A DNA stretch of 58,299 nt from IMG/VR virus record IMGVR_UViG_3300020060_000002, positions 1 through 58,299 of that record; one strand, written 5' to 3'. Origin of the DNA: a virus. Its lineage: Duplodnaviria; Caudoviricetes. This document shows positions 1 to 58,299 of the stretch, piece after piece. How positions within the stretch are numbered: the stretch's first letter is position 1; the number at the start of each line of letters is the position of its first letter. The translations under genes were made by a program, and so were the position numbers. Below the pieces are notes generated by a model. The model worked only from the letters and a program-made list of their open reading frames with translations. It was not told the DNA's origin and did no database searches.

Positions 1-127
1 ATCATCGACTTGGACGCGCGGCTCGGCGCCGTGGTGTCCGGGAGTCCGGTTAACACCAGGCTGACCACGCTCGAGACCCGCACGACCGACACGGTCACCA
101 CCGGCGGCATCGGCAACCAGCGTCTCG
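1..127. repeat. Terminal direct repeat (identical to 58173-58299); assembly overlap of a circular contig
   Basis: Exact 127-nt match between start and end; the reading frame of the 58095 gene continues across the join. Confidence 0.95.
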
Positions 128-11966: not shown

Positions 11967-12449
11967 ATGACCCGACAGGTCGCCAACAACGGCAAGAGTC
12001 CAGCCACCGCCAGGGCTCGCGCGAGCGTCAACGGCCAGAAGATGCTCGAGCGCGTGGCGGCCGGCATGACCATCACCGAGGCCGCGAAGTCCGTCGGGGT
12101 CAGTCGCAGGCACGGTCAGGACCTGTATCAGCGCCAACTCCAGTTGGCCATGGAACAGAACAATGACCTGCGACAACACTTGATCGCACAGGATCTCGAG
12201 ACGTTGAGACTCCTCGCCCGTGCGCACATGGGCTTGGCGCTCAGCGGTGACACGCAGAGCGCCAAGGTTGTGCTTGCGTGCCTCGACCGCCGGGCGAAGC
12301 TGCTCGGGCTCGACGCCGCGGTCAAGGTCGAGATCAGCCAAGGGAAGATCAACGACACGGTCGATGAGATCGTCGGCCTACTCGATGACGCCAGCGACGA
12401 CGAACTGGCCACCGTGCTCATGATCGAGAGTGCGAGGAAAATCGGGTGA
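11967..12449 (+). CDS. Terminase small subunit (HTH)
   Basis: AGMTITEAAKSVGVS HTH; DRRAKLLGLDA; overlaps large terminase start. Confidence 0.75.
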   Translation: MTRQVANNGKSPATARARASVNGQKMLERVAAGMTITEAAKSVGVSRRHGQDLYQRQLQLAMEQNNDLRQHLIAQDLETLRLLARAHMGLALSGDTQSAKVVLACLDRRAKLLGLDAAVKVEISQGKINDTVDEIVGLLDDASDDELATVLMIESARKIG

Positions 12450-14224
12450 GCTTGGACGCCGACATCCGGGCTCGGCTGGACAAGCTGTCACCAGCCGAGA
12501 GGCGTCTCGCAGAGATCAGGCTCCGTCGCATCGCCCGTCGCAAGCGCGCGCTGCGCAGGTTCCCCACGCCGGGACACCTCGCGAAGTTCCTGCATCCCGA
12601 CACTGTGCAGACGGCGCTCATGGCCCGGCTTGACCAGGTGGCTCTCGAGTGCGACGCGGGCCTTCAGCGACGGTGGCTCATCTCCACACCACCGCAGGAG
12701 GGCAAGACCCAGCGGATGGCGCTGGCGACCCCGCTGTGGTTTCTGCTCAGGGATCCCTCGCGGCGCATCGCGCTCGCCAGCTACGAGCAGGGCCTGGCGG
12801 CGCGCTCCGGCCTGGCGGCGCGGCAGGCCATCGAGTCCTATGGCGGTGGCTACAAGGGCGACCGCCATGCTCGCGACGACAACGATGACGAGCTGGGCCT
12901 ACTGCTGGACCCGGACAACGCCAAGCAGTCCAGCTGGTCACTGGCCGACGTGCCCGGCCGGCGCAACGGCGGCATCATCTCGGTCGGGGTGGGCTCGGCG
13001 TTCACCGGCCGGTCGGTGGACGTGTTGATCGTCGACGACCCGGTGAAGAACGCGAAGGACGCCGACTCCGAGGAGCAGCGCAAGGCCAGTCACGACTGGT
13101 TCCAGGCGGTCGCCGAGACGCGCCTGTCGGGCAACGCCATCGTGATCGTTATCCAAACTCGCTGGCATGAAGACGACCTGATGGGGTGGTTGCTCACCAA
13201 GGACGACGCCGAGTCCACGAAGCGCTGGGCGCGGCTGTTCGTGCCGGCCATCGCCAGCAAGACCGACGACCCGGTCGGCCGCGAGGTGGGCGAGTACCTC
13301 GACAGCGCCCGCGCACGCACGCAGGAGGACTGGGACCAGATCCGCAAGAACGTGGGCGAGCGCTGGTGGGCCGCCCTCTACATGTGCGAGCCGGCGCCCC
13401 CTAAGGGCGGGGTGTTCCAACTCGAGTGGATTCAGAACAACCGAGTCAAGGAGGTACCCGAGCTTCTGCGGACCGAGGTCTACGTGGACCCCGCGGACAA
13501 CGAGGGCACCGGCGACGAGGCGGGGATCGTCGTGGCTGCCGAGGGTGTGGATCATCGGTACTACGTCTTGGCCGACCTGAGCGACCACATGACGGTGGGT
13601 CGCTGGTTCCGGGTGGCGTTCCTCGCGGCCCTGCGGTACGGCGCCACGGCGATCCGCTACGAGAAGTCCCTGTCGGGGCTGGCTCGACAGGCGCCGCAGT
13701 CGTGGCGGGATCTGCGGCGGGAGGCGGCCAAGCTCGACGAGCTACGGAAAGCGTGGGCGTTGCCGGGGCAGGGGCAGGCATGGCCGGTTCATCCGGACGG
13801 AACGGTGATCGAAAAGACGCGCGATGTGCTGGCGCGCGACGACGCCACGCCAGCCGAGAAGGTGACCCTCGAGGCCAACCTGATTGAGCTGTGGCCGCTC
13901 GTCCCCAAGGTGATGGCGTTGCCGGTTTCCGGAATCTCGGTGCGCTCGTTCCCCGCCGAGGGCACGAAGACGTTCCGCGCCAAGATGGTCGGCCCGGTGT
14001 ACGAGGGCGGCCACGTGTCGCACGTCGGCCACTTCCCGACGCTCGAGCACCAGCAGGTGTCATGGCAGGAGGGGCAGGACTCACCTGACCGCATGGACGC
14101 GCTGGTGCACGCGATCACCACCTTGGCGCGGAATTCGGGTGGCGTGGAGATGTCGGGCGCACGCGGGCAGATGAACACCCGGACGACCGCCATCGCGCGG
14201 GCCGGCGCCACCGGGCGACGCTGA
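12446..14224 (+). CDS. Terminase large subunit
   Basis: PPQEGKT, LIVDDPVK, IQTRWHEDD, VDPA, SPDRMDA. Confidence 0.95.
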   Translation: MSLDADIRARLDKLSPAERRLAEIRLRRIARRKRALRRFPTPGHLAKFLHPDTVQTALMARLDQVALECDAGLQRRWLISTPPQEGKTQRMALATPLWFLLRDPSRRIALASYEQGLAARSGLAARQAIESYGGGYKGDRHARDDNDDELGLLLDPDNAKQSSWSLADVPGRRNGGIISVGVGSAFTGRSVDVLIVDDPVKNAKDADSEEQRKASHDWFQAVAETRLSGNAIVIVIQTRWHEDDLMGWLLTKDDAESTKRWARLFVPAIASKTDDPVGREVGEYLDSARARTQEDWDQIRKNVGERWWAALYMCEPAPPKGGVFQLEWIQNNRVKEVPELLRTEVYVDPADNEGTGDEAGIVVAAEGVDHRYYVLADLSDHMTVGRWFRVAFLAALRYGATAIRYEKSLSGLARQAPQSWRDLRREAAKLDELRKAWALPGQGQAWPVHPDGTVIEKTRDVLARDDATPAEKVTLEANLIELWPLVPKVMALPVSGISVRSFPAEGTKTFRAKMVGPVYEGGHVSHVGHFPTLEHQQVSWQEGQDSPDRMDALVHAITTLARNSGGVEMSGARGQMNTRTTAIARAGATGRR

Positions 14225-17503: not shown

Positions 17504-18174
17504 TGGCCACGGGCCACGCGGCCACCGGGGCGTTGTTTTGTGGGCTCGCCGGCCCGCTGCTTCCCTCGCCGCTGGACCCGGTCACCGCGGTGTTCCTGTC
17601 GGCCGCGCTCGGTGCCCCGCTGGCGCTGGTGATGGATCTGGACACCAGGGGCAAGGCGTACTACGCGCTCCAGCCGTTGAGCTGGGTTCTCAAGCCGGTA
17701 CTGATCGGGATCGCCAAGATGATCTATCACTTGACCCGCGGCGAGGACGACGAGGAGCAGACCAACGGGCACAGGATGTTCACCCACCAGCCGGCGTTCG
17801 CCTTCCTCCTGGCCCTGGCTGCCCTGCTGCTGGTCTGGGGAACCGGGTGGGAGTGGTACGCGGCCGGCGTGACGCTGGTGGGCGTGTGGGCACACCGGGC
17901 CGGCGACGCGTGCACCAAGCGCGGCGTGCCCATCGGTCTGTGCCACGTCCTCGTCCGGAGCTTCCGCGACGAGGACAAGGTGTGGCTGTTCGTCGGCATC
18001 CCCCGCAAGCTCCGGTTCGTCACCGGCGGGAAGCGGATCAAGAAGTTCTGGAAGGCGGGCAAGCGCCGCCGATGCTGGGACGAGATCGGCGAGGGCTTCA
18101 CCACCGCCATGCTCACCGGCCTGACGGGGCTCCTCGCACTGGCCACCCTCGCCGGCTTCTACCCAGGGTGGTGA
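17500..18174 (+). CDS. Membrane-bound metal-dependent hydrolase (YdjM-like)
   Basis: GHAATG, DLD, HRMFTH, AHRAGDACTKRGVP plus TM segments. Confidence 0.75.
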   Translation: MMATGHAATGALFCGLAGPLLPSPLDPVTAVFLSAALGAPLALVMDLDTRGKAYYALQPLSWVLKPVLIGIAKMIYHLTRGEDDEEQTNGHRMFTHQPAFAFLLALAALLLVWGTGWEWYAAGVTLVGVWAHRAGDACTKRGVPIGLCHVLVRSFRDEDKVWLFVGIPRKLRFVTGGKRIKKFWKAGKRRRCWDEIGEGFTTAMLTGLTGLLALATLAGFYPGW

Positions 18175-18177
18175 CCA

Positions 18178-18372
18178 ATGACCATCCGACATGAGCCAGA
18201 CCTCTGGTGCGACCACCAATCGAAAGGTTGTATCGGCTGGTTCGAGCGGAGCCAGCCGTGGGTGAGCGCGCGGGTAACTAGGCGTGACGCGCGAAAGAGG
18301 GGCTGGTTGCGCACGCCACTCGGTGACTGTTGCCCCTCGTGTTGCCTTGCCGAGAGGAGGCGTCATGCCTGA
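18178..18372 (+). CDS. Small Cys-rich protein
   Basis: WCD...C...ARKRGW...DCCPSC. Confidence 0.55.
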   Translation: MTIRHEPDLWCDHQSKGCIGWFERSQPWVSARVTRRDARKRGWLRTPLGDCCPSCCLAERRRHA

Positions 18373-18613
18373 GCGCTGCGAGCTGACTGACCTCTACCCG
18401 GCCGAGTGCGCCTGTCGTCACCACCGTGGCGGCCGGACACCCCAGGAGGAGGTCGAGCTGATCCAGCGGAATGGTCAGGTGGTCGGACGCCGGCCGACGG
18501 GTCCCGACTGGCTCCCAGCCATGTACGCCGGCTTGTGCCCGGTGTGCAGCGAAGACATCCGCCCTGGACAGTTCATTCGCCCGACGCCCGATGGCTGGGC
18601 GTGCTGCGAGTAA
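18365..18613 (+). CDS. Small Cys-rich protein
   Basis: GAGGAGG RBS; AMYAGLCPVCSEDIRPG. Confidence 0.6.
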   Translation: MPERCELTDLYPAECACRHHRGGRTPQEEVELIQRNGQVVGRRPTGPDWLPAMYAGLCPVCSEDIRPGQFIRPTPDGWACCE

Positions 18614-18653
18614 AAAACCTCGCCGGCCTGAGATCAGGGTGCGATCGGGCGAG

Positions 18654-18705
18654 ATTGATAAGCGGGGCCGAGGGTCACATGAGACCTAAGGCCCCGCTTA
18701 TCAAT
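18654..18705. repeat. 16-bp perfect inverted repeat (bidirectional terminator or protein-binding site)
   Basis: ATTGATAAGCGGGGCC-20nt-GGCCCCGCTTATCAAT between convergent operons. Confidence 0.75.
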
Positions 18706-18893
18706 GCAGGTCAGGGCATGTGACCCCCAGTTGATCTCAAGTCTCAGCCGTCCTCACATCTGCGCGCGTTACGCGCGGACACGCGACTATGCGACTGGGC
18801 GGGCACGAGTGCGCACAGGTACGCATGTGACATGCGAGCGCCCGTGCGTCACGTGATGCGCGTGTGACGCACGGGCGTGTGTGCCGGCGCGAG

Positions 18894-20759
18894 CTACGAG
18901 GTGCGGACCGGCTCGATGCTGGCGCCATCGCCGTAGTGCCAGACACCATTGCGGCTGTGCGCCCGACGCACCTCCTTGTGGGTGCTGAGCTTGCGATAGA
19001 CGGTCGCCCGGCTCGGCATCCCTGGCAGCTTGGCCAGTTCGTCCGCGGTGTGCGGCCCCTCGTCCTTGAGCACCTGGAGGATGGCGTCGAGCGGCTCCTC
19101 CCGCTCGACCGGCATGTCGATGACCATCGCACCGCTGGTCTCAGTGAGCGCGGCCCATGCGACCGGCTCGAGTGCGGGACGGCCGAGTTCCACCGCGGTG
19201 GTGATGATCTGGCGGCGGTCCTTGGGCGCGACGAAGAAGCCCTTCGCGATGGCCGGCGTGGTGTGTTCGTTGTCGCGCAGCAGGAACTGGCCGTTGCGGA
19301 GTCCAGCTGAGTTCCACCCCTGGCGGACCAGCTCGCCCCACAGGACCTTGCTGGCGTGCGGGTCCAGGCCCAGGCCCACCACCGCGCGCAGCTGGGCCTG
19401 GAACTCCTTGGACCCCACATCCTCCTTGGACCCGTTCTGCGCGAGCGGGAGGATGCGGACTCCACACTTGCGAGCCCGCTTGCCGATCCGGCCGATGAGG
19501 CGGACCACCTCCTTGTCGCCGGCTGCCACGAGGTCCGGGTACTCGTCGATGACCAGGACCACCCAGGGGCGGTCCGGACTCGGCTGGAACTCGTCGCCGG
19601 CATCGTCGGACTCCTCCTTGTCCAGGCCCAGCTGGCGCTCGCGGACCTCGATGACTGCGAGGATCCGCTCGAGAGTCCACTTCGCGGAGTCCAGGTCCGC
19701 CGCGAGCGGGAGTGCCAGGACCCGGCGCCACATGCCGAGGGTGGCGCCGCCGGCCATGTCGATCCCGACGATGACCACGTCCCGGCAGGCGAGCAGCCAG
19801 ATCAGCAGCGACTCGAGCCAGACCGACTTGCCTGAGCCGGTCTGGCCCACGATCAGCGTGTGCTGGAGCGTGTATTTCAGCTCGGTGGCGTCGGCGAGCA
19901 TCCCCATGACGAACTTGAAATTGAGGGCGCGCAGGGTCGTTGATGCAGGTCGGGGCATCGGGTGGGCGATCTTGCCCTTCCACGGGTCCTTGGGCAGGAA
20001 CGAGAACCACACGTGCCGGCCGGACTCCTCGTCCGCGCTGGCGAACACCGCGCCAGGTCGCAGGCCGTAGTAGCTGGCCAGGGCGTCAGTCGCACGCGTG
20101 ACCGCCGCCGGTGTCACGCCCTCAGCGAGTTTGATGCGCATCTTGGCGATGGCGCCTGCCGAGACGAGCTTGACCGGGTCGGACCCGGCGAGGGGTCGTA
20201 GCTCGATGGCTGGGGTCTCGCCCCGCTTGATCTTGCCCCAGCGACGTGCGTACCGGTCCGCCCGGCCGGCGATGCGGACTCGTCGATGCCACCACCAGAT
20301 GCCGCCGAGGACCAGCACGCCGAGCTGCCACAGGGCACCGGACAGGACCGAGGGTCCGGACCCGATGCGGACCGCGAGGTAGGTCCCGGTCCAGGCGAGT
20401 AGGACCGCGAGGTAGGTCCGCTCGGTCGGCCGGTCGAGGACTCCATTGGTCCCGCGGTCCAGTCCCTCGGGGACCACCAGCATCACCAGAGTCCGGACCC
20501 GGTCCCCGAGTCGCGGACCCAGGACCGCCAGGACCGCACCGAGGACCGGGAGCAGAAGTGCGGTCCACCACCAGCCGGACCAGTGCCAGCGGACCAGGAC
20601 CGCGGTGAGCCAGACCCCGCCACCAACCCACAGTGGGGTGAGGACCCGGCGCCAGCGCCAGGCGAGTCGGCGGGATCCACGCATACCCGCCCGGATGGCC
20701 GCGAAGATCAGCACCCCGAGCGCGACCTTGAATGCCGAGGTGGACTTCTGCTTGCTCAT
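18894..20759 (-). CDS. traB: FtsK/SpoIIIE-family conjugative DNA translocase (actinomycete TraB-like)
   Basis: N-terminal TM helices; HTLIVGQTGSGKS Walker A; VLVIDE Walker B; RARKCGV..AQ; C-terminal wHTH (PSRATVYRKL). Confidence 0.85.
   Translation of the reverse strand: MSKQKSTSAFKVALGVLIFAAIRAGMRGSRRLAWRWRRVLTPLWVGGGVWLTAVLVRWHWSGWWWTALLLPVLGAVLAVLGPRLGDRVRTLVMLVVPEGLDRGTNGVLDRPTERTYLAVLLAWTGTYLAVRIGSGPSVLSGALWQLGVLVLGGIWWWHRRVRIAGRADRYARRWGKIKRGETPAIELRPLAGSDPVKLVSAGAIAKMRIKLAEGVTPAAVTRATDALASYYGLRPGAVFASADEESGRHVWFSFLPKDPWKGKIAHPMPRPASTTLRALNFKFVMGMLADATELKYTLQHTLIVGQTGSGKSVWLESLLIWLLACRDVVIVGIDMAGGATLGMWRRVLALPLAADLDSAKWTLERILAVIEVRERQLGLDKEESDDAGDEFQPSPDRPWVVLVIDEYPDLVAAGDKEVVRLIGRIGKRARKCGVRILPLAQNGSKEDVGSKEFQAQLRAVVGLGLDPHASKVLWGELVRQGWNSAGLRNGQFLLRDNEHTTPAIAKGFFVAPKDRRQIITTAVELGRPALEPVAWAALTETSGAMVIDMPVEREEPLDAILQVLKDEGPHTADELAKLPGMPSRATVYRKLSTHKEVRRAHSRNGVWHYGDGASIEPVRTS
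20300..20650. repeat. Dense GGACC/GGTCC repeat array within traB (clt-like)
   Basis: More than 20 copies counted by eye in about 350 nt, both orientations. Confidence 0.6.
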
Positions 20760-21499
20760 GCCGACTCCTCCGTCTCGTCCGCGGTCTCACCCTTGACGAC
20801 TCGCAGGATCTTGAGCGCCCGGTTGGACCCGATCCCCAGCTCCCGCATGACCAGCCGCTTGCCGATCTCGGCACCGGTCGTTTCGAGCAGTGCGCGAACG
20901 TCCTCGATCAGCTCGTCATCGGTGCGTCCGCCACGCGGCGCCCGGGTTGTAGGCGTCGCCGTGACGCTTCTCGGCGCGGCCGGCTCGGCTACCTCTCGCG
21001 GTACCGGCGTCAGCTTGGTAACGGTCGACACCGGCGTGTCGGTCCGGGTCGCCTGAACCTTCTTCGGAGCCCTGCGCGCGGCCCGCTTGTTCTCTCGCTC
21101 CAGCTGGGCGGCCGCACGCTCCTCGTTCCCGCGGGCGTTGCTGTGCGTCACGCCGAGGACCGCCGCGAGGGCGATCGGCGGGATGGCGCCGAGGCCCATC
21201 GCGAGCGGGTCGGCGGACCGGACCGCCCAGTCCAGGATGTTGCCGGCCAGGGACACGGTGATGGCCGCGAGGGCGAGAACCCGGCCCAGCTTCCACGCTG
21301 GCGCCCGGGTCATCCAGATGTCCATACCGAGCGCGGCGACCGCGTCGATGCAGAGCGGGAACATCCAGCTGAGCGGGCCGAACCCGACGTGCTCGGCGAG
21401 GTTGCTCAGGGCATCGAAGGACCACACCGCGGCCACGGCGATGACCAGGGTGGCGAGGAGCCGCCGGAACAGGAGCCGACTGTTGCCGCGGATCTTCAC
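20756..21499 (-). CDS. DUF2637/Spd-like membrane protein with C-terminal HTH
   Basis: WSFDALSNLAEHVGF...WMFPLCID...SLAGN...AIPP; terminal ELGIGSNRALKIL. Confidence 0.7.
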   Translation of the reverse strand: MKIRGNSRLLFRRLLATLVIAVAAVWSFDALSNLAEHVGFGPLSWMFPLCIDAVAALGMDIWMTRAPAWKLGRVLALAAITVSLAGNILDWAVRSADPLAMGLGAIPPIALAAVLGVTHSNARGNEERAAAQLERENKRAARRAPKKVQATRTDTPVSTVTKLTPVPREVAEPAAPRSVTATPTTRAPRGGRTDDELIEDVRALLETTGAEIGKRLVMRELGIGSNRALKILRVVKGETADETEESA

Positions 21500-21675
21500 G
21501 GCCGCTCCTCCCTGCTCCAGGCGCGGTGGCCGTCGCGACGCTCTCGTGCGTCCCGGAAGGGCAGCCACACCACGTAGCCGATGAACAGGAATGCGGCCGG
21601 CACGGCGTTCCCGGTGGCCAGGAGCGCCAGCAGGGCGACGGCCGCCGCAAGCGCGACGATCGATCGAAGGGTCAT
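21496..21675 (-). CDS. Small membrane protein, first gene of tra operon
   Basis: Leaderless ATG 7 nt after TAGACT (- strand); two hydrophobic segments; GTGA-coupled. Confidence 0.6.
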   Translation of the reverse strand: MTLRSIVALAAAVALLALLATGNAVPAAFLFIGYVVWLPFRDARERRDGHRAWSREERP

Positions 21676-21723
21676 GGGGGATAGTCTAGGTCGGGCGTGC
21701 CCGAGATGGAATGAGACTCCCCC

Positions 21724-21752
21724 TTGTCTCCCCCCGACTTGGTGGGTAACAT
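21724..21752 (+). promoter_or_regulatory. Conserved palindromic operator-promoter, copy 4 (divergent from tra operon)
   Basis: TTGTCT-17nt-TAACAT. Confidence 0.8.
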
Positions 21753-21792: not shown

Positions 21793-22008
21793 GTGGCTGG
21801 CAGCGAGGGTGACGGCGAGGGCACGGTGTTCCTGGCCCATGCGTGGGTGCCCGACGAGCACCGCCGGGCCACCGTCGGTCCCTGGCACTGGTGGAACGTC
21901 TACACGGCTTACGACGTGGCCGAGATGCAGGCCGTCCGGCGGGCGCGTGGATGGTCCGGCGGTCGCGGCAAGTACGAGGTGCGCACGATCGCGGGAGGCG
22001 CGGACTAG
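21793..22008 (+). CDS. Hypothetical protein
   Basis: GAGGAGG RBS, GTG start. Confidence 0.55.
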   Translation: MAGSEGDGEGTVFLAHAWVPDEHRRATVGPWHWWNVYTAYDVAEMQAVRRARGWSGGRGKYEVRTIAGGAD

Positions 22009-22448
22009 TGGCCACGAGGCGCAAGGGCAAGAAGGGCAAGAAGGGCAAGGGGCGCATCCGGAAGTGGGTCGGTCGCTGGGCGTGGCGCAAGGTGCACACC
22101 TGGGCGACACGAACGCGAGCCCGCGCGCGCAGGGCGTTCCAGCCGCGGACCATCCACGCCAGCGCCAAGCAGCGCGTGTGGGAGCGCCAGTTCCCCAACC
22201 CACGCAGGCAGCCGTCGCTCGCCGAGACCATGGAGAAGCTCGACGAGTGGATGGAGGGGTACGAGGCCGTGTTCGCCAACGGCTGGCACGTCCCGTTCGA
22301 GATCGACACCTACCGGGCGGCGACGCTCCGGGAGGCCGCCTACGACGCCGCCGAGCTGGCGCACGGCACCGTGGCGCGGTCATTGCAGATCATCGAAATC
22401 CGACCTGTGAACGAACTCGCCGAGCAGGCGCTACGGAGGTTCCAGTGA
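22008..22448 (+). CDS. Hypothetical protein with highly basic N-terminus
   Basis: GGAGG RBS; KGKKGKKGK repeat. Confidence 0.6.
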   Translation: MATRRKGKKGKKGKGRIRKWVGRWAWRKVHTWATRTRARARRAFQPRTIHASAKQRVWERQFPNPRRQPSLAETMEKLDEWMEGYEAVFANGWHVPFEIDTYRAATLREAAYDAAELAHGTVARSLQIIEIRPVNELAEQALRRFQ

Positions 22449-23402: not shown

Positions 23403-24413
23403 ATGGCTGACTACTTCGATACCGGGTTCGCCGTCCGCCAGCCGAGCTGGCACCAGAAGGAGACCCTTCTGGACACGGCCCCGCGCACCTGGAAGGACGC
23501 CCGGCCGCTCGCCGGTCTCGACTGGGAGTACGTCACCGAGCCCATGTTCGCTCGGGGCATCGCCGGCATGAACGACGACGGCACGCCGAGCTACACCTAC
23601 CGCGAGGTCGAGCACTTCCAGGTGGTCAAGCGCGACGACACGAACGAGGTGCTGGCTGCCGGTCGCGACACCTACGAGGTGATCACGAACACCGAGCTAG
23701 GCGAGATCCTGCACGCGCTCACCGACAAGACCGAGCTGGAGTTCGAGACTGCCGGCAGTGTTCGCGGCGGGCGGTCGGTGTGGGCGCTGATCCGGCTCGG
23801 CGAGGACGTGCAGATTGGCAAGGACCCGAGTCCCACCCGCCCGTACATGGGCGTTGTCAACCACTGCGACAAGATCGGCGCGTGCCGGGCGTACGCCACC
23901 GACATCCGGATCGTGTGCTGGAACACGCTGTCCGCGGCCGACGCAGAGGCCGACCGCGACAACACGGTGGCCACCTTCCGCCACACGTCGAACTGGCGGG
24001 ACCACATCCAGACCGCGCGCGACGCGATCGTGGGCGCCAAGAGCGAGTTCCAGGCATGGGTGGACATCGCCGAGCACCTCCAAGGGCTGTCGGTCACCGA
24101 GGTGCAGGCCGAGGAGTTCGTCCGCGAGTTCATGCCCTTCCCCGGCCGGGTGGAAGGTCCGGACGCGCTGGTGACCAAGCGGGTGCGCGAGAACATCGAG
24201 GCCGCGCGCACGGACCTGCGTTACGTACTGCACGAGTCCAAGACCAGCGAGGGCATCCGCGGCTCGGGCTACTGGCTGGTTCAGGGCGCGGCCGAGTTCT
24301 TGGACCACCTGCGTCCGAAGAAGTCGCAGCAGTCATACGTCCAGCGCACGGTGATCGACACGAACAAGGGCAAGGCCCTTGCGGTCAGCAAGGTGCTGGA
24401 GCTGACCAAGTAG
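23403..24413 (+). CDS. DUF932/DUF945 (phage/plasmid-like TIGR03299-type) protein
   Basis: RQPSWH...AGLDW...FETAGSVRGGRSVW...IRIVCWNTL...FRHT. Confidence 0.8.
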   Translation: MADYFDTGFAVRQPSWHQKETLLDTAPRTWKDARPLAGLDWEYVTEPMFARGIAGMNDDGTPSYTYREVEHFQVVKRDDTNEVLAAGRDTYEVITNTELGEILHALTDKTELEFETAGSVRGGRSVWALIRLGEDVQIGKDPSPTRPYMGVVNHCDKIGACRAYATDIRIVCWNTLSAADAEADRDNTVATFRHTSNWRDHIQTARDAIVGAKSEFQAWVDIAEHLQGLSVTEVQAEEFVREFMPFPGRVEGPDALVTKRVRENIEAARTDLRYVLHESKTSEGIRGSGYWLVQGAAEFLDHLRPKKSQQSYVQRTVIDTNKGKALAVSKVLELTK

Positions 24414-31776: not shown

Positions 31777-34700
31777 ATGGCAGCCACCACCCGCAAGTCA
31801 CCCCCCAAGAAGGCGGTCAAGCCGGCGCCCCCGATGCCCAGCTTGACCGCCTCCGGCGAACAGGTCGACCTCTCCGACAAGCAGCTCACCCAGAAGATCC
31901 ACCGCCAGCGCGCCCCCTGGCAGCAGCTCGCGTGGAACTACCGGGAGCTGATCGGCGAGCTGGGCTCCGGCATCGAGTACGAGGCGAACATCGTCTCCAA
32001 GGTGCACTACGTGGTGGGACAGGTGTCCGACGAGGACGAGCCCACCCTGCCGACGAGCGATGAGTACAAGCTTCCCGATCACGTACAGCGCGCCGCCCAG
32101 GAAGCCCTCGACGCCCTGCCGTTCCGCAACGGCTACGCCTTCACCGGGGTGCTGTCCACCTGCCTGCGCGTCACCGGCGAGGCGTGGCTGCACGGCCGCA
32201 CCGAGAAGCGCCGCGAGATCTGGAGCGTGCTGTCCTCCGACGAGGTGACCCCGGTCAACAACACGCTGGGGATCGTCGACATGCCCGGCACGCCGCCGCG
32301 GCCGGTCGACAAATCCAAGGAGGTGTTGCTACGCCTGTGGAAGCCGCATCCCCGGTGGAAGCGGCTCGCCGATTCCCCGCTGCGCAGGATGCTCGACACG
32401 TGCGAGGACATCGTCCTGATCGGCCGGGAGCTGCGTGCGGCCGCACGGTCCCGGGTGGCCGCCAACGGGATCTTGCTGGTGCCCAACGAGCTGTCGGTGG
32501 TGCGCAAGCCGGACGGCAGTAGCGACGACTTCCAGACCGAACTGGAAATGACCTTGCTCGCGCCGATCGCCAACGAGGGCGACGCGGGCGCGGTGGTGCC
32601 GGTGGTGCTCAAGGGACCGGCCGACCTGCTGGAGAAGGTCCGGCACATCACCCTCCAGCGCGAGGACGCACCCCAGCTGATCGAGAAGCTGGAGTCGGCC
32701 CTACGCCGCCTGCGCGAGGGCATGGACATGCCGCCCGACGCCGGGCAGTCGGTGGCCGACATGAACCACTGGTGCGTCGACACCGACACCGAGATTCTTA
32801 CCCGGCGTGGCTGGCTCACCGAGGGCCAGCTAGAGGTGGGGGACGTGGCGCTCACGCTCAACCACGACACCGGCCTGTCCGAGTGGGCACCCGTACTTGA
32901 CATCTACCGGGCCGACGTGCGCGCCGAGCCGATGACCGCGCTGCGCACCCGAAACCACGACAGCCTCACCACCGCAGGGCATCGGTGGCCCGTACTGCAC
33001 GGTGGCCGGCGGGACTGGACCACCACAGACCAGCTGACCAGCGGGCATGGCATCACGATGGCCGCACCATCTGCTGACCTGCCCGAGGTCGCGAAGTGGT
33101 CCGATGACCTGGTCGAGCTGGTCGCCTGGTTCTGGACCGAAGGCAGCTACCAGCCCACGCCGTGTATCGCCCAGTCGCATAGTCGCAACCCTGAGCGGGT
33201 GGCTCGCATCCGCGTGCTGCTGACCCGCATGTTCGGGCCGGCAAGTACGACGCTGCGCGGCACCGGATGGCCAGCCTGGCGCGAGAAGGTGCAGGCCAAT
33301 GCCGGTTCGTACGGCGGCCCGGTCACCGTGTTCTACCTCAACCAGTATGCGGCTGCCGAGCTGCGCGGGATTGCGCCGGACAAGCGCGTGGACCCGCACT
33401 GGGTGACTGAGCTGACCATGGCCCAGTTGGCGCTGTTCATCGACGTGTCCGGTCAGGGCGACGGCCAGCACTACCGGTCCGGCTCGGCCGACATGTGGCA
33501 GGCCCGTCCGGACGCGCTGGACGCCTACGAGCTGGCACTGATCCTCTCCGGCCGGACGGTTCGCCGGAGTGATGCCGGCCGCCGGGTTGGCGTGTGGCGC
33601 CAGTCCACCGCGCGTCCGGTTAAGGCCGCACTCCAGGCGGCCGGCGCTGGCGGGCGAGCCGAGATGCGTACTCGCTGGTACACGGGCACGGTGTGGTGCC
33701 CGGTGACCCGCAACGGGACGTGGTTTGCACGTCGTGGCGGCACCAGCTACTACACGGGCAACAGCGCCTGGTCGGTGAGCCAGGAGAACTGGAAGAACTA
33801 CCTCGAGCCGCACACCCGGCTGATCGTCGACTCCCTCACCGAGGCGTACCTGCGGCCCTCGCTGATGATGCCGGCCGGAAAGGGCGGGTGGGGCCTGAGC
33901 GAGGACGAGGCCGACCTCGTCCAGGTGTGGTACGACGCCGGCAACGTCACCGAGAACGCCAACCGCGCCATGGACGCCCGGGAGCTGTACGACCGCGGCG
34001 AGGTGGGGGGCGAGTACCTGCGGACCTCACACGGCGCCAGCAAGGGGGATGCGCCCACCGATGAGGAGATGCGGCGCATGATCACCTGGAAGGCGTCCCA
34101 GTCCATGTCGCCCGAGGTGGTGCAGGCCCTCATCGCCCAGGCCATCGGCGGGGATGGGGTGAGCGTCAACGGCCAGTCGACGCCGACACCGCGAGCGATC
34201 GAGGTCTCGCGACCCGAGTCGTCCGGCGAGACCACCAGCGGGGCGCCCACGTCCGGCACGTCGGGCACCCAGCCCACCCAGCCGGTCCCGAGCGGCGTGG
34301 TGGCTGCGGTAAATCCGCAGAGGGTACTCGATTCAGTGACGCTCCTGAGCGGTGATCGACTGGCCGAGATCGAGCGCGCCCTGCGCGACCGCCTGGTGGT
34401 GGCCGCCGACGACGCCCTGGTACGCGCCCTCGAGAAAGCCGGCTCTCGCGTCCGAGCATCGTTGCAACAGAAGGACAAGACCCTCGCCGCCGACGTGAAG
34501 GGCCTGGCCGCCGAGGACGTGTGCCCACTGGTGGGCCAGGCCCGGATCGCCGAACTCGGCATCCGGGAAGACACCCTGCTCGGGCGGGCGTTCGACTACC
34601 TGGCCAAGAAGTTCACCGCGTGGACCACGCAGGCGGTCCGGGATGTGGCGCGCACGGTCGCCGACCTCGCCGGCCTGACCCTGCCGCAGGTCGCCGCGCT

Positions 34701-35340
34701 GGTGAGCAAGCTCAGCGCGCGCATCCCAACGGCGTGGAAAACGCTGGAGGCCCGACTTCAAGCCCGTGCGCTGGATCGGCTGTACGGCCGCGGCGGGGAC
34801 GAGGAGCGCGGTGAGATCCCCGACACCATCGTCTCGCCCGGCGACATCCGGGCCGCCCTGTCGGAGATCGGTGGTGCGGCCGGCACCGATGGCGCGCAGG
34901 CCGGTGGGCTGGCGCTCGGCACGGACGTGACCGGGGTGATCGACGAGCAGGCCGATCGGGTCGGGTTCTCCTGGAAGTACGGGATCACCCCCCGCGAGCG
35001 CCAGTTCGAACCGCACCGCCAGCTCAACGGCCACCGGTTCGAGAGCTGGAGCGACGCGGGCCTGGCAACCAACGCGCAGACGGCCTGGGTGGGCACGCAC
35101 TACGCCCCCGGCGATCACGACGGTTGCCTCTGTGACTACGTGCCGACGTGGGCGATCCTGGAGACGTTCGGCACCATCGACCAGGAGATCGAGCCGGAGA
35201 ACGTTGGCTCGATCTCCGACCGGGTACTGGCCCAGCTGGACGACGCCGCCGGACGGCGTGGCACGCACGCCCAGCGCAACCGTGACGAGCGGGACCGGAT
35301 TTTGGCAGTCCAGCGCGAATGGATGGAGCTGACGACATGA
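31777..35340 (+). CDS. Portal protein fused to MuF-like minor head domain, intein-containing
   Basis: LWKPHPR...ADSP...RSRVAANGILLVP portal motifs; C-terminal APGDHDGCLC. Confidence 0.8.
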   Translation: MAATTRKSPPKKAVKPAPPMPSLTASGEQVDLSDKQLTQKIHRQRAPWQQLAWNYRELIGELGSGIEYEANIVSKVHYVVGQVSDEDEPTLPTSDEYKLPDHVQRAAQEALDALPFRNGYAFTGVLSTCLRVTGEAWLHGRTEKRREIWSVLSSDEVTPVNNTLGIVDMPGTPPRPVDKSKEVLLRLWKPHPRWKRLADSPLRRMLDTCEDIVLIGRELRAAARSRVAANGILLVPNELSVVRKPDGSSDDFQTELEMTLLAPIANEGDAGAVVPVVLKGPADLLEKVRHITLQREDAPQLIEKLESALRRLREGMDMPPDAGQSVADMNHWCVDTDTEILTRRGWLTEGQLEVGDVALTLNHDTGLSEWAPVLDIYRADVRAEPMTALRTRNHDSLTTAGHRWPVLHGGRRDWTTTDQLTSGHGITMAAPSADLPEVAKWSDDLVELVAWFWTEGSYQPTPCIAQSHSRNPERVARIRVLLTRMFGPASTTLRGTGWPAWREKVQANAGSYGGPVTVFYLNQYAAAELRGIAPDKRVDPHWVTELTMAQLALFIDVSGQGDGQHYRSGSADMWQARPDALDAYELALILSGRTVRRSDAGRRVGVWRQSTARPVKAALQAAGAGGRAEMRTRWYTGTVWCPVTRNGTWFARRGGTSYYTGNSAWSVSQENWKNYLEPHTRLIVDSLTEAYLRPSLMMPAGKGGWGLSEDEADLVQVWYDAGNVTENANRAMDARELYDRGEVGGEYLRTSHGASKGDAPTDEEMRRMITWKASQSMSPEVVQALIAQAIGGDGVSVNGQSTPTPRAIEVSRPESSGETTSGAPTSGTSGTQPTQPVPSGVVAAVNPQRVLDSVTLLSGDRLAEIERALRDRLVVAADDALVRALEKAGSRVRASLQQKDKTLAADVKGLAAEDVCPLVGQARIAELGIREDTLLGRAFDYLAKKFTAWTTQAVRDVARTVADLAGLTLPQVAALVSKLSARIPTAWKTLEARLQARALDRLYGRGGDEERGEIPDTIVSPGDIRAALSEIGGAAGTDGAQAGGLALGTDVTGVIDEQADRVGFSWKYGITPRERQFEPHRQLNGHRFESWSDAGLATNAQTAWVGTHYAPGDHDGCLCDYVPTWAILETFGTIDQEIEPENVGSISDRVLAQLDDAAGRRGTHAQRNRDERDRILAVQREWMELTT
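32773..33762 (+). mobile_element. Intein (330 aa) with LAGLIDADG-like endonuclease region
   Basis: N-terminal CVDTDTEILTRRGW, block B TAGHRWP, LVAWFWTEGS, C-terminal VWCP...YYTGN|S; extein NHW|SAW. Confidence 0.9.
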
Positions 35341-50172: not shown

Positions 50173-50649
50173 ATGGAGTGGAGAACCGTGCCCGGATTCC
50201 CGAACTACAGGATCAGCAGCGCTGGCGAAGTCTGGTCGGCGGGCTATCGCGACCGCCGCGGATGGTGGCGTAAGCCCAAGCGCATCGGTGGCGGCCGTGA
50301 TGGCTCCGGCTATCGGCAAGTAGCGCTCGTGGGGCCGGATGGCCAACGGATGCGCAAGGTGCACCTGCTGCTGTGTGAGGCATGGCACGGGTCACGGCCG
50401 GCCGGTATGCAGGCCCGCCATCAGGACGGGGATCAGCTGAACAACACGCCTGGCAATGTGACCTGGGGGACGCCGAGCGAGAACATGCGCGACCAGGTGC
50501 GGCACGGCACGCATGTCAACACCCGGAAGACGCGTTGTCCACGCGGCCATCAGCTGGCACTGCCCGCCATGGGCAAGCGGCGGCGGTGCCGCCTCTGTGA
50601 GAACGATGGCGATCGTCGTCGTTACGCCGAGCGCAAGGCCCTGCGATGA
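50173..50649 (+). CDS. NUMOD4-HNH homing endonuclease
   Basis: EWRTVPGFPNYRISSAGEV; VHLLLCEAWHG; RHQDGDQLNN..GNVTWGT..EN. Confidence 0.85.
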   Translation: MEWRTVPGFPNYRISSAGEVWSAGYRDRRGWWRKPKRIGGGRDGSGYRQVALVGPDGQRMRKVHLLLCEAWHGSRPAGMQARHQDGDQLNNTPGNVTWGTPSENMRDQVRHGTHVNTRKTRCPRGHQLALPAMGKRRRCRLCENDGDRRRYAERKALR

Positions 50650-58095: not shown

Positions 58096-58299
58096 TGGCG
58101 ATCGTCTCGATGCTGGACGCGGTGTTCGGCGAGCCGGCGTCCAGCGCGGAATACAACAAGCTGATCGACAACATCATCGACTTGGACGCGCGGCTCGGCG
58201 CCGTGGTGTCCGGGAGTCCGGTTAACACCAGGCTGACCACGCTCGAGACCCGCACGACCGACACGGTCACCACCGGCGGCATCGGCAACCAGCGTCTCG
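58095..58299 (+). CDS. Minor tail protein, N-terminal part (continues at 128-660)
   Basis: TGATG coupling; frame runs into the terminal repeat. Confidence 0.75.
   Translation, partial: MAIVSMLDAVFGEPASSAEYNKLIDNIIDLDARLGAVVSGSPVNTRLTTLETRTTDTVTTGGIGNQRL

What the first reader, a model, noticed from the sequence alone, without database searches (positions are those of the whole stretch)
18894..21675. Complete tailed phage carrying an actinomycete TraB/Spd conjugation operon: candidate conjugative phage-plasmid
Seen: a three-gene reverse-strand operon with its own leaderless promoter, encoding a small TM protein, a DUF2637/Spd-like TM+HTH protein, and a 621-aa protein with TM-FtsK ATPase-wHTH architecture. 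The genome has a full virion gene set and a Rep/helicase pair, but no recognisable integrase, ParAB or GntR-type TraR/Kor repressor. Known: TM-FtsK-wHTH is the TraB architecture that alone moves dsDNA in Streptomyces plasmids and AICEs, and Spd proteins aid intramycelial spread. Inference: the phage may persist extrachromosomally and move between hyphae or compartments by conjugation, independent of virions and receptors.
Basis: partly seen in the sequence, partly recalled or inferred. Interest (0 to 1): 0.85.

Follow-up and report, generated by a model that had tools for sequence, protein, structure and literature searches.

The report
TraB-like DNA pump in soil phage
A family of uncultured soil phages of high-GC bacteria always carries a membrane-anchored DNA-pumping ATPase and a membrane partner that resemble the Streptomyces plasmid transfer and spread proteins, so these phages may move their DNA between host cells or hyphal compartments without virions, though nothing shows that they live as plasmids.

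Summary
Window 18894-21675 carries the genome's only minus-strand block: a 59-aa membrane ORF, a DUF2637 protein (4 helices plus C-terminal HTH) and a 621-aa protein (TM bundle, FtsK-type motor, wHTH). The three genes are translationally coupled. The record is a complete, circularly assembled 58.2-kb tailed-phage genome from soil. Six-frame HMM searches find no integrase, serine recombinase, ParA or GntR.

The ATPase lies apart from chromosomal FtsK. Its best curated family is plasmid TraB (47 bits, cut-off 800). [quoted passage not shown] DUF2637 genes sit beside FtsK/TraB-like genes on actinomycete plasmids.

The module is not a recent pick-up. It is syntenic across an uncultured ~60-kb phage clade; none of the ten complete genomes has ParA, an integrase or a serine recombinase. 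Plasmid persistence is therefore unsupported, and a chimeric join is excluded.

New here: a CGGWCC(G) motif cluster (12 copies in 350 bp) inside the pump gene's 5' third exceeds synonymous-codon expectation. Relatives show lineage-specific variants. It is a candidate clt-like site.

Precedents exist (pZL12; SpdB2 homologues on phiC31 and VWB), so this is a new variant of a known kind.

The parts
18894..20759 (-). 621-aa membrane-anchored FtsK/TraB-like dsDNA translocase. N-terminal helical TM bundle (about residues 9-178), alpha/beta motor (about 190-540; Walker A GQTGSGKS 305-312, Walker B VLVIDE 401-406), C-terminal wHTH (559-609).
   Evidence: (K311, S312 and E406 invariant in 32 homologues).
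20756..21568 (-). DUF2637 membrane protein: four long helices, a disordered variable linker and a small C-terminal HTH. The likely true start is the GTG at 21499. Its stop overlaps the translocase ATG (ATGA).
   Evidence: Homologues lie directly upstream of the translocase gene in 14 of 21 viral loci by tblastn. The DUF2637 HMM hits 8 of 10 complete genomes.
21496..21675 (-). 59-aa hydrophobic ORF (one or two TM helices), first gene of the block. Its TGA overlaps the GTG at 21497-21499.
   Evidence: tblastn finds relatives in only 3 of 21 viral loci (L009, L016, L018), so coding status is the least sure of the three.
20254..20602 (.). Cluster of 12 copies of GGACCG/CGGTCC (core CGGWCC(G), both orientations) inside the TM-coding 5' third of the translocase gene. 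Candidate cis-acting (clt-like) site.
18839..18877 (-). Perfect 14-bp-stem hairpin starting 17 nt after the translocase stop codon. Terminator-like, with no T tract.
   Evidence: I11; region 18620-18900 folds with z = -5.7.
18654..18705 (.). 26-nt-arm palindrome between the convergent plus-strand and minus-strand units. Likely a bidirectional terminator.
   Evidence: (I1).
21683..21688 (-). -10-like TAGACT, 7 nt upstream of the small ORF's ATG. Possible leaderless start; inferred only.
   Evidence: sequence. One search found no consensus promoter.

Best explanation
The block is a conserved phage-borne counterpart of the actinomycete TraB/Spd double-stranded-DNA transfer apparatus.

Shown by computation:
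- The 621-aa protein is an intact FtsK-fold motor with a membrane anchor and a C-terminal winged helix.
- Its partner is a four-helix membrane protein with a small HTH.
- The genes are translationally coupled, have their own terminators and run against the rest of the genome.
- The pair is kept in the same place throughout a clade of ~60-kb soil phages.

Inferred mechanism: the ATPase forms a hexameric pore in the cytoplasmic membrane. Through its wHTH it recognises a repeated short motif on the phage genome; the CGGWCC(G) cluster inside its own gene is the candidate. It then pumps double-stranded phage DNA across a membrane or septal cross-wall, with the DUF2637 protein and perhaps the 59-aa protein acting as the channel or spread partner. 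The pay-off would be spread of replicating phage genomes into neighbouring hyphal compartments or contacting cells without virions or receptors.

Whether the phage also persists as a plasmid is not shown and is not needed for this reading.
For: - Architecture and intact catalytic motifs.
- The top structural matches are FtsK motor domains bound to dsDNA (E 1e-18, TM-target 0.65). Next come the conjugation coupling protein TcpA and EccC.
- None of the chromosomal FtsK marker domains (FtsK_4TM, FtsK_alpha, FtsK_gamma) is hit at E<=0.1.
- The best NCBIfam family is plasmid_TraB: 47 bits over residues 206-470, against EccC 27 and FtsK 25. The proven Tra of pZL12 scores only 20 on that model, and pIJ101 Tra does not hit it.
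- Trees: the window clade plus the Amycolatopsis prophage copy is 100/99. With P0128/P0129 it is 100/98. It joins pZL12.71c, the S. anulatus pZL12-like plasmid Tra and pDSM40587 at 94/84. Chromosomal FtsK forms a separate 100/99 clade (same topology, SH-aLRT 86).
- The window's TerL is also 33% identical to the pZL12 TerL.
- DUF2637 proteins sit beside FtsK/TraB-like genes on Streptomyces plasmids, one of which (NZ_CP108594) also has a GntR gene nearby. One sits on the phage-like circular replicon pPaSha2, with the same 4-bp overlap.
- The partner matches the published description of SpdB2 (four TM helices, DNA binding; PMC4447253 passages).
- Translational coupling matches what is described for spd operons (same paper).
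- Motif cluster: 12 copies against 0.94 expected (P 4e-10). It is the densest 7-mer cluster in the genome. 0 of 1000 synonymous shuffles reach it. It has the largest hexamer excess of 41 coding segments (6.42 against a maximum of 4.86). It recurs in 8 of 13 viral homologues at <=7/1000. Other lineages show different enriched motifs at the same place.
- Conservation and synteny.
Against: - The TraB HMM score is far below its curated cut-off (47 against 800).
- Identity to any plasmid Tra is <=30% and limited to the motor.
- The join to the pZL12 group is not starred and involves long branches. pJV1 TraB and pIJ101 Tra fall elsewhere.
- There is no GntR-type TraR/Kor regulator.
- pIJ101 SpdB shows no similarity to the DUF2637 protein. 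pIJ101, pJV1 and pZL12 neighbours carry no DUF2637.
- The motif signal is moderate. About half of the enrichment comes from the amino-acid sequence itself (shuffle mean 5.6). The motif was chosen from this window. The replicating homologues fall into only about 3-4 independent lineages. 5 of 13 viral homologues and the Amycolatopsis copy lack it. Sites lie in both orientations and inside the 5' coding part, whereas the published clt loci are described as direct repeats (PMC4447253 and PMC3583192 passages).
- The host is unknown and may not be mycelial.
- No transfer, binding or expression data exist.
Confidence: 0.45

Rival explanations
1. One reading: a conjugative phage-plasmid. The genome persists as a circular extrachromosomal prophage and transfers by TraB-type conjugation between mycelia.
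For: - There is no integrase in the window or in 9 complete relatives.
- A Rep-initiator-like protein and a DnaB pair are present.
- The assembly is circular, with an exact 127-bp overlap.
- Precedent in pZL12 and the pZL12-like S. anulatus plasmid with GntR, TraB-like gene, KilB and terminase.
- pPaSha2, a complete phage genome deposited as a circular plasmid of a cultured Pseudonocardia, carries a DUF2637-FtsK pair.
Against: - ParA is absent from 0 of 10 complete genomes searched, and no repressor or GntR was found. pZL12, by contrast, has ParAB, an integrase and GntR.
- No clade member appears among one genome each of 185,579 species. All holders are soil metagenomes.
- A circular assembly fits terminal redundancy equally well.
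- Absence of integrase also fits a purely lytic phage.
Confidence: 0.12
2. An FtsK-like housekeeping role for the phage: a septum-located pump that clears or moves phage (or host) DNA at closing cross-walls or sporulation septa. This would trap phage genomes in compartments or spores, or help resolve replication products.
For: - The fold is that of FtsK translocating dsDNA.
- TM-motor-wHTH is also the FtsK/SpoIIIE architecture.
- Papers on Streptomyces phages treat phage FtsK-like genes as linked to host development or replication (passages in PMC13587820, PMC11536984 and bioRxiv 10.1101/2024.02.16.580700).
- A short motif recognised by the wHTH could work like KOPS (KOPS role recalled, not from a call).
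Against: - The protein groups away from chromosomal FtsK and lacks the FtsK_alpha, FtsK_gamma and 4TM Pfam domains.
- The motif is clustered at one place and unpolarised, rather than spread and skewed over the genome.
- The dedicated DUF2637 partner is a plasmid-transfer-locus neighbour.
Confidence: 0.2
3. A membrane exclusion or defence cassette: an independently transcribed module that blocks or expels incoming DNA of competing phages or plasmids.
For: - The block runs against the rest of the genome with its own terminators.
- In Amycolatopsis the pair sits at the very edge of an integrated prophage, between comEA and comEC, a typical place for lysogen-expressed genes.
- There are weak PADLOC P-loop hits (mad8 5e-7, SspH 6e-7).
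Against: - The PADLOC hits cover only the P-loop region and no system-specific partner is hit.
- The module is fixed in position across the clade, unlike typical variable defence islands.
- The phages show no lysogeny genes.
Confidence: 0.13
4. An assembly artefact: a plasmid or AICE fragment joined into a phage contig.
For: None beyond the opposite strand orientation.
Against: - The order TerL...YdjM, then the convergent translocase and DUF2637 genes, recurs in related viral contigs. Within the loci, the TerL, YdjM and DUF2637 neighbours were each found in 14 of 21.
- GC content is uniform.
- Identical small contigs from a second soil study tile the region, and a 7.7-kb contig of a ~95% variant from a third study spans it.
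Confidence: 0.01

Closest known systems
Tra (pZL12.71c) of Streptomyces plasmid-phage pZL12 / phage ZL12 (GQ919031) and pZL12-like plasmids such as S. anulatus NZ_CP108377
   Same: - A tailed-phage genome that carries an FtsK/SpoIIIE-type transfer ATPase.
- The nearest characterised neighbour of the window's ATPase in the tree (94/84).
- The large terminases are also homologous (33-36%, with a short segment at 50%), and the tra gene lies a few kb from TerL in both.
[quoted passage not shown]
   Different: - pZL12 is 90 kb and has ParAB, an integrase and a GntR regulator. The window has none of these.
- pZL12's tra neighbours carry no DUF2637.
- Identity is about 25%, in the motor only.
- The tra gene runs with TerL in pZL12 and is convergent here.
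- The original paper (Zhong 2010) was not held.
TraB of Streptomyces conjugative plasmids (pJV1, pSVH1; NCBIfam NF041214) with the SpdB2-type spread proteins
   Same: - Membrane association, FtsK-like motor and C-terminal wHTH.
- Best curated family hit.
- A partner with four TM helices and a DNA-binding module, in a translationally coupled operon, as described for SpdB2 and spd operons (PMC4447253 passages).
- A cluster of short repeats as the candidate recognition site.
   Different: - 47 bits against the 800-bit cut-off.
- No TraR.
- The repeats lie in the 5' coding part and in both orientations.
- pJV1 TraB does not group with the window clade.
- The pSVH1 proteins themselves could not be fetched, so whether SpdB2 is a DUF2637 protein was not tested.
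pPaSha2 of Pseudonocardia alni Shahu (CP052773), and the Amycolatopsis prophages between comEA and comEC
   Same: - Tailed-phage genomes in cultured mycelial actinomycetes.
- A DUF2637 gene is followed by a TM-FtsK-like gene on the strand opposite to the structural genes.
- 4-bp overlap in pPaSha2.
- The Amycolatopsis copy is a true homologue (40-41% identity, inside the window clade).
   Different: - The pPaSha2 ATPase is not detectably similar by BLASTP (E 0.22).
- Both elements are smaller phages (about 35-42 kb) of other structural types.
- The Amycolatopsis one is integrated.
- The Amycolatopsis copy lacks the CGGWCC cluster.
'FtsK-like DNA translocase' of cultured Streptomyces phages (for example Wofford and NootNoot, ~130 kb) and DUF2637 'membrane protein/excisionase' genes of cluster-A-type mycobacteriophages
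   Same: - FtsK/SpoIIIE motor in actinophages.
- DUF2637 in actinophages (PHROG 733).
   Different: - Only 21-25% identity.
- The Wofford protein falls in another starred clade and has no DUF2637 neighbour.
- The mycobacteriophage DUF2637 genes were not seen paired with an FtsK-like hit (0 Mycobacterium records among 78).
Chromosomal FtsK/SpoIIIE
   Same: Motor fold and overall TM-motor-wHTH plan.
   Different: - Separate clade at 100/99.
- No FtsK_4TM, FtsK_alpha or FtsK_gamma domains.
- Phage-borne, with a dedicated membrane partner.

Membership tests
Streptomyces plasmid TraB (NCBIfam NF041214, equivalog) | Scores above the curated family cut-off | tested here: not met
   47.2 bits against a cut-off of 800. 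pJV1 TraB scores 784.5, pZL12 Tra 20.2, and pIJ101 Tra has no hit.
Streptomyces plasmid TraB (functional class: FtsK-like conjugative dsDNA translocase) | Membrane anchor + FtsK-type ATPase with intact Walker motifs + C-terminal wHTH | tested here: met
Streptomyces plasmid TraB (functional class) | Groups with conjugative Tra proteins rather than chromosomal FtsK | tested here: inconclusive
   Separation from FtsK is strong (100/99). The join to the pZL12 Tra group is 94/84 and unstarred. pJV1 and pIJ101 Tra lie elsewhere on long branches.
Streptomyces plasmid TraB (functional class) | A clt locus of short repeats recognised by the wHTH | tested here: inconclusive
   The CGGWCC(G) cluster at 20254-20602 exceeds codon-shuffle and genome expectation. 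Binding is untested, and orientation and position differ from the described clt loci.
Streptomyces plasmid TraB (functional class) | GntR-type TraR/Kor repressor forming a kil-kor pair | tested here: not met
   There is no PF00392 match in six frames.
Streptomyces plasmid TraB (functional class) | Hexameric pore, peptidoglycan binding, requirement for transfer | not testable with these tools
   This needs biochemistry and genetics.
SpdB2-type spread protein | [quoted passage not shown] | tested here: met
   The description of SpdB2 comes from PMC4447253 passages.
SpdB2-type spread protein | Sequence homology to a characterised Spd protein | tested here: not met
   There is no similarity to pIJ101 SpdB (E 1.1). 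pSVH1 SpdB2 was not available. DUF2637 genes do neighbour FtsK/TraB-like genes on 4 plasmids.
Chromosomal FtsK/SpoIIIE | FtsK_4TM, FtsK_alpha and FtsK_gamma domains; placement in the FtsK clade | tested here: not met
   Only PF01580 is hit. The protein lies outside the 100/99 FtsK clade.
Phage-plasmid (P1 / N15 / pZL12 kind) | Partition system or other plasmid maintenance genes | tested here: not met
   PF01656 and PF13614 are absent in the window, and PF13614 is absent in 0 of 10 complete clade genomes.
Phage-plasmid (P1 / N15 / pZL12 kind) | Seen as an extrachromosomal replicon in a host isolate | tested here: not met
   The genome-contig scan gave only 30-41% relatives, three of them in large Amycolatopsis chromosomal contigs. 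The holders of the window DNA are soil metagenomes.
AICE (actinomycete integrative and conjugative element) | Integrase + Rep + Tra (criteria of Ghinet et al., PMC3218068 passages) | tested here: not met
   There is no tyrosine or serine recombinase. The element is a full tailed phage.

The most novel reading that the evidence does not exclude
A whole clade of apparently non-temperate soil phages uses a built-in TraB/Spd-like pump to push its replicating double-stranded genome through hyphal cross-walls or cell contacts. The pump would be guided by a clt-like CGGWCC(G) repeat cluster that lies inside the pump gene and co-evolves with its winged helix. Infection would then spread through a multicellular host without virions or receptors, a second, conjugation-like transmission route of a lytic virus.
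Probability: 0.3. Interest if true: 0.85.

Novelty: new variant of a known kind. Interest (0 to 1): 0.58.

Why it matters
How phages spread through compartmented, multicellular actinomycete mycelia is poorly understood. If this module moves phage DNA between compartments or cells, phage host range and spread would not depend only on virions and receptors. The line between conjugative elements and viruses would also be blurred in a second lineage besides pZL12.

The work gives concrete test material:
- a defined three-gene operon;
- a 350-bp candidate cis site;
- cultured proxies that carry the same kind of module: Amycolatopsis prophages and Pseudonocardia alni pPaSha2. The paper on P. alni Shahu reports working conjugation and knockout methods (PMC8928166, abstract and passages).

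If the function turns out to be exclusion or septal DNA clearance, that would still assign a role to the widespread but uncharacterised 'FtsK-like' genes of actinophages.

Tried and rejected
- Megablast of 18600-21750 against 50,697 phage records gave no match.
- Complex prediction of translocase residues 1-200 with DUF2637 residues 25-160 gave 'no answer' (score 0.00, controls not run). This says nothing for or against binding.
- The look-up of sequencing runs listed no RNA holder, so nothing can be said on expression.
- The consensus promoter scan found 0 sites.
- No tRNA genes were found.
- PADLOC gave only weak P-loop hits.
- The listing of cluster members gave no names or hosts.
- Zhong et al. 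2010 (PMC2897331) is not held. SCP2 accession NC_003904 is not in the plasmid collection. pSVH1, pSG5, SLP1, pSAM2 and pMEA300 Tra proteins were not fetched, so the tree has few characterised anchors.
- I looked for a match between the wHTH recognition helix and motif type. S-R/K-A-T/Q-V goes with CGGWCC lineages and A-R/K goes with others, but L018, L019 and L021 break the pattern. I rejected this as evidence.
- The 18614-18893 spacer was considered as the clt. It holds hairpins but no repeat family.
- The host could not be named. MCP relatives are <=42% identical and spread over Arthrobacter, Gordonia, Microbacterium and Streptomyces phages.
- Supplements of the cited papers were not opened.


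Full report
**What the window is.** The window is a whole IMG/VR virus record of 58,299 bases, rated 100% complete. Its first and last 127 bases are identical, so it assembled as a circle of 58,172 bp. GC content is an even 65-71%. A GC3-filtered ORF call puts nearly every gene on the plus strand.

Pfam and PHROG scans of 73 ORFs found:
- Erf, SSB, a Rep-initiator/DnaT-like protein and DnaB;
- an M15 endolysin and RusA;
- a small-terminase-like HTH protein and TerL;
- a YdjM-like membrane protein and a DUF932 protein;
- a 1187-aa portal and a MuF-like protein;
- the major capsid protein, tail proteins, a head-tail adaptor, an HNH endonuclease and a tape-measure protein.

It is a complete siphovirus-type genome of a high-GC Gram-positive host. 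The capsid protein's best cultured relatives are only <=42% identical and are spread over Arthrobacter, Gordonia, Microbacterium and Streptomyces phages. The host genus is therefore unknown. The DNA occurs in soil metagenomes of three studies.

**The observation.** The three ORFs exist at the stated coordinates.

- The 621-aa protein has hydrophobic helices in residues 6-156. It matches Pfam FtsK_SpoIIIE at 1.1e-10 and has a weak C-terminal HTH hit. Walker A (GQTGSGKS) and Walker B (VLVIDE) motifs are present (sequence). K311, S312 and E406 are invariant in 32 homologues.
- An AlphaFold model built on that alignment (mean pLDDT 83.5) shows a helical bundle (9-178), an alpha/beta motor and a winged helix (559-609). 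Foldseek's best PDB matches are FtsK motor domains on dsDNA (E 1e-18, TM-target up to 0.65). The conjugation coupling protein TcpA and EccC follow. A profile search of PDB sequences gives the same families.
- The 270-aa protein matches DUF2637 at 2e-10 and PHROG 733. Its model shows four long helices, a disordered linker and a confident three-helix HTH.
- The 59-aa ORF is hydrophobic.

Read from the sequence, the DUF2637 stop and the ATPase start overlap as ATGA. The small ORF's TGA overlaps an in-frame GTG at 21497-21499, which is probably the real DUF2637 start. All three genes are therefore translationally coupled. Downstream, a perfect 14-bp hairpin and a 26-nt-arm palindrome fill the convergent spacer, which folds far better than shuffles (z -5.7). 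Upstream there is only a -10-like TAGACT 7 nt before the ATG, and the consensus scan found no promoter.

Six-frame HMM searches of the record find no tyrosine integrase, resolvase-type recombinase, ParA (two models) or GntR.

**Not an artefact, not a recent capture.**
- A protein search returned 94 other proteins at 35-84% identity (P0002-P0095). With the window's own protein, 25 of the 95 come from contigs of 56-64 kb.
- A scan of IMG/VR gave 21 related loci. In these, tblastn finds TerL in 14 of 21, the YdjM-like gene convergent and downstream in 14 of 21, and a DUF2637 homologue directly upstream in 14 of 21. Several loci are cut at contig ends.
- The DUF2637 HMM hits 8 of 10 complete genomes. 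The other two have a tblastn homologue.
- Contigs from a second soil study tile the region without a single difference. A 7,753-bp contig of a ~95% variant from a third study spans YdjM, the translocase, DUF2637 and the next genes, with indels only in spacers.

So the block is an old, fixed part of an uncultured ~60-kb phage clade.

**Lifestyle.**
- Among 14 related records, only one carries a tyrosine integrase. That record is an 86%-complete 100-kb contig whose ATPase is 38% identical. None of the 9 records at >=99% completeness carries one.
- 0 of 14 records carry a resolvase-type recombinase.
- 0 of 10 complete genomes, window included, carry ParA.
- No repressor-like or GntR protein turned up.
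- A scan of one genome from each of 185,579 species found no clade member. It found only 30-41% relatives: three Amycolatopsis species, a MAG and a Kribbella.

In the Amycolatopsis genome examined, the pair sits at the edge of a ~35-kb prophage with portal, scaffold, capsid and Dit genes. The prophage is inserted between comEA and comEC, and no PF00589 hit lies nearby. Nothing therefore shows that the window's phage persists as a plasmid. It looks lytic, or it uses an unrecognised maintenance mode.

**What the ATPase is related to.**
- tblastn against cultured phages gives only 21-30% identity over the motor, mostly to the 'FtsK-like DNA translocase' of ~130-kb Streptomyces phages.
- tblastn against plasmids gives 23-30% identity, to Streptomyces and Kitasatospora plasmid proteins and two Bacillus plasmids.
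- In NCBIfam the best hit is plasmid_TraB at 47 bits over residues 206-470, against 27 for EccC and 25 for FtsK. The cut-off is 800. The proven Tra proteins of pZL12 (20 bits) and pIJ101 (no hit) fit that model worse.
- An exhaustive HMMER search of 1.84 billion representatives gave 2,057 hits at E<=0.001, 175 at E<=1e-10 and 32 at E<=1e-30.

I built trees on the motor columns. The rows were 13 clade members, the Amycolatopsis copy, six plasmid or phage-plasmid Tra proteins, a Wofford-type phage protein, seven chromosomal FtsK proteins and 41 full-length representatives picked from the 150 listed.

- Quick tree, 69 rows: the window clade with the Amycolatopsis copy is supported at 99, and with P0128/P0129 at 98. 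It joins pZL12.71c, the S. anulatus pZL12-like plasmid protein and pDSM40587 at SH-aLRT 86. Chromosomal FtsK is a separate clade at 99.
- Careful tree, 38 of those rows, reduced for run time: the same topology with 100/99, 100/98, 94/84 and 100/99.
- pJV1 TraB and pIJ101 Tra sit elsewhere on long branches. 'TraB-like' here therefore means the loose class of conjugative FtsK-like ATPases, not the pJV1/pSVH1 equivalog.
- The window's TerL is also 33% identical to the pZL12 TerL and 34-50% identical, in segments, to that of the S. anulatus plasmid. This hints at a deeper link between the two phage lineages.

**The partner.**
- pIJ101 SpdB is not similar to the DUF2637 protein.
- The spd and tra neighbours on pIJ101, pJV1, pZL12 and the S. 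anulatus plasmid carry no DUF2637.
- DUF2637 proteins do lie just upstream of the FtsK/TraB-like gene on two small Streptomyces plasmids. The same holds on a 62-kb Streptomyces linear plasmid that also has a GntR gene there.
- It also holds on pPaSha2 of Pseudonocardia alni. pPaSha2 is in fact a complete tailed-phage genome, with terminase, portal, protease, capsid, holin and Bet genes. Its DUF2637-FtsK pair lies on the opposite strand with a 4-bp overlap. Its ATPase is not detectably similar to the window's.
- Thoma et al. 2015 (passages) describe SpdB2 as an oligomeric four-TM, pore-forming, DNA-binding protein that interacts with TraB. They note that spd genes are translationally coupled. 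[quoted passage not shown]

**A new cis feature.**
- A k-mer scan of the whole genome showed that the densest local cluster of any 7-mer is GCGGTCC/GGACCGC, with 7 copies in 229 bp inside the 5' third of the translocase gene.
- The core GGACCG/CGGTCC occurs 12 times in 20254-20602, against 84 in the genome and 0.94 expected (P 4e-10).
- Five of the seven 7-mers encode Ala-Val-Leu or Ala-Val-Arg in frame, so part of the signal comes from the protein sequence. I therefore shuffled synonymous codons. The mean was 5.6, and 0 of 1000 shuffles reached 12, whether codons were shuffled inside the segment or across the gene.
- Among 41 coding segments of 651 nt from the window, this one has the largest hexamer excess: 6.42, against a maximum of 4.86 and a median of 3.22 for 38 segments of other genes.
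- In homologues, the same hexamer is enriched beyond local shuffles (<=7 of 1000) in 8 of 13 viral loci. It is not enriched in L010 (45/1000), L011, L015, L018, L019 or the Amycolatopsis copy.
- An unbiased all-hexamer test shows that other lineages carry different over-represented motifs at the same place: CGGTAC/GGTACC, GTGCCA/CTGGCA and CGAGCC/CGGCTC.

Caveats:
- The motif was picked from this window.
- The positive loci fall into only about 3-4 independent lineages.
- The excess is moderate.
- The sites lie in both orientations, within the coding sequence.

Published clt loci are short direct repeats bound by the cognate TraB (passages in PMC4447253 and PMC3583192; clt concept in PMC11571958 and PMC3429521). 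The pSVH1 repeat sequence I remember is recalled, not checked. I read the cluster as a candidate clt-like or operator site, not as a shown one. A link between the wHTH recognition helix and the motif type was looked for and is not clear.

**Most likely mechanism and rivals.**
- Best reading (0.45): a TraB/Spd-like apparatus. A membrane-anchored hexameric pump is loaded on phage dsDNA through its winged helix. With the DUF2637 protein as channel or spread partner, it moves phage genomes across septa or cell contacts. The shown steps are domain content, fold, intact motifs, coupling, conservation, phylogenetic separation from FtsK, and the motif cluster. The inferred steps are hexamer and pore formation, motif recognition, direction and purpose of pumping, and partner contact (the complex job gave no answer).
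- Rival (0.20): an FtsK-like septal clearing or spore-loading role.
- Rival (0.13): a membrane exclusion or defence cassette.
- Rival (0.01): an assembly artefact.

**Novelty.**
- FtsK-like genes in actinophages are routinely annotated and are discussed without a known function (passages).
- SpdB2 homologues on phages have been noted.
- pZL12 is an established Streptomyces plasmid-phage with a tra gene.
- My searches for 'DUF2637' (2 papers, neither on phages), 'phage-plasmid' + conjugative + Streptomyces and 'FtsK-like' + actinobacteriophage listed no paper whose title or abstract start describes this clade, the DUF2637-translocase pairing in phages, or a motif cluster in such a gene. Only listings and passages were read, and subscription papers are not covered.

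I therefore file it as a new variant of a known kind, of moderate to good interest, with cultured proxies that make the hypothesis testable.

Noticed in passing
window 1-127 and 58173-58299: The exact 127-bp terminal repeat looks like an assembler's circular overlap rather than a measured DTR. A second assembler's contig of the same DNA is 58,202 bp. The true end structure is unknown.
   Followed up: partly
L013:4844-5914 and L024:4887-5915: In two relatives, the disordered linker of the DUF2637 protein carries an inserted Cys/His-rich segment that looks like an HNH endonuclease. I judged this by eye from alignment A2; it was not scanned.
   Followed up: no
G001:C22 about 214,000-250,000 (L037, L038, L005): An Amycolatopsis prophage of about 35 kb is inserted between comEA and comEC. 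No tyrosine integrase lies within 100 kb on that contig. How it integrates is unexplained. L037:4300-9900 has few GC3-rich ORFs and was not annotated.
   Followed up: partly
CP052773 (L040, L041): pPaSha2, deposited as a circular plasmid of Pseudonocardia alni Shahu, is a complete tailed-phage genome with a short 'site-specific integrase' ORF (184 aa) and a DUF2637-FtsK pair. It may be a phage-plasmid or an excised prophage. The paper on the strain does not mention it.
   Followed up: partly
window 12446-14224 and 31777-35340: TerL and the portal gene are separated by about 17 kb of mostly unknown genes, including the minus-strand block and a conserved DUF932 gene at 23403-24413. The portal ORF is unusually long (1187 aa; the PHROG match covers only residues 9-333). 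The next ORF joins an RNA-ligase-like N-terminus to a MuF/portal-like part.
   Followed up: no
window 18164-18477, 18613-18644, 21982-22009: The ~95% variant from a third soil study differs mainly by replacements or insertions in spacers and small ORFs flanking the block (123, 489 and 238 extra letters). The block's borders are hot spots of change while the block itself is kept.
   Followed up: no
window 53392-53687: A second local k-mer cluster (GGCCTCGA/CGAGGCC, 4-5 copies in 300 bp) lies inside the tape-measure gene. It probably reflects protein repeats.
   Followed up: no
window 50173-50649: A free-standing HNH/NUMOD4 homing-endonuclease-like gene sits among the tail genes.
   Followed up: no
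L018 (IMGVR_UViG_3300041409_000610): A 155-kb record rated complete, with terminal repeats, also carries the translocase (46% identity) and a weak DUF2637 hit. The module therefore also occurs in a much larger phage.
   Followed up: no
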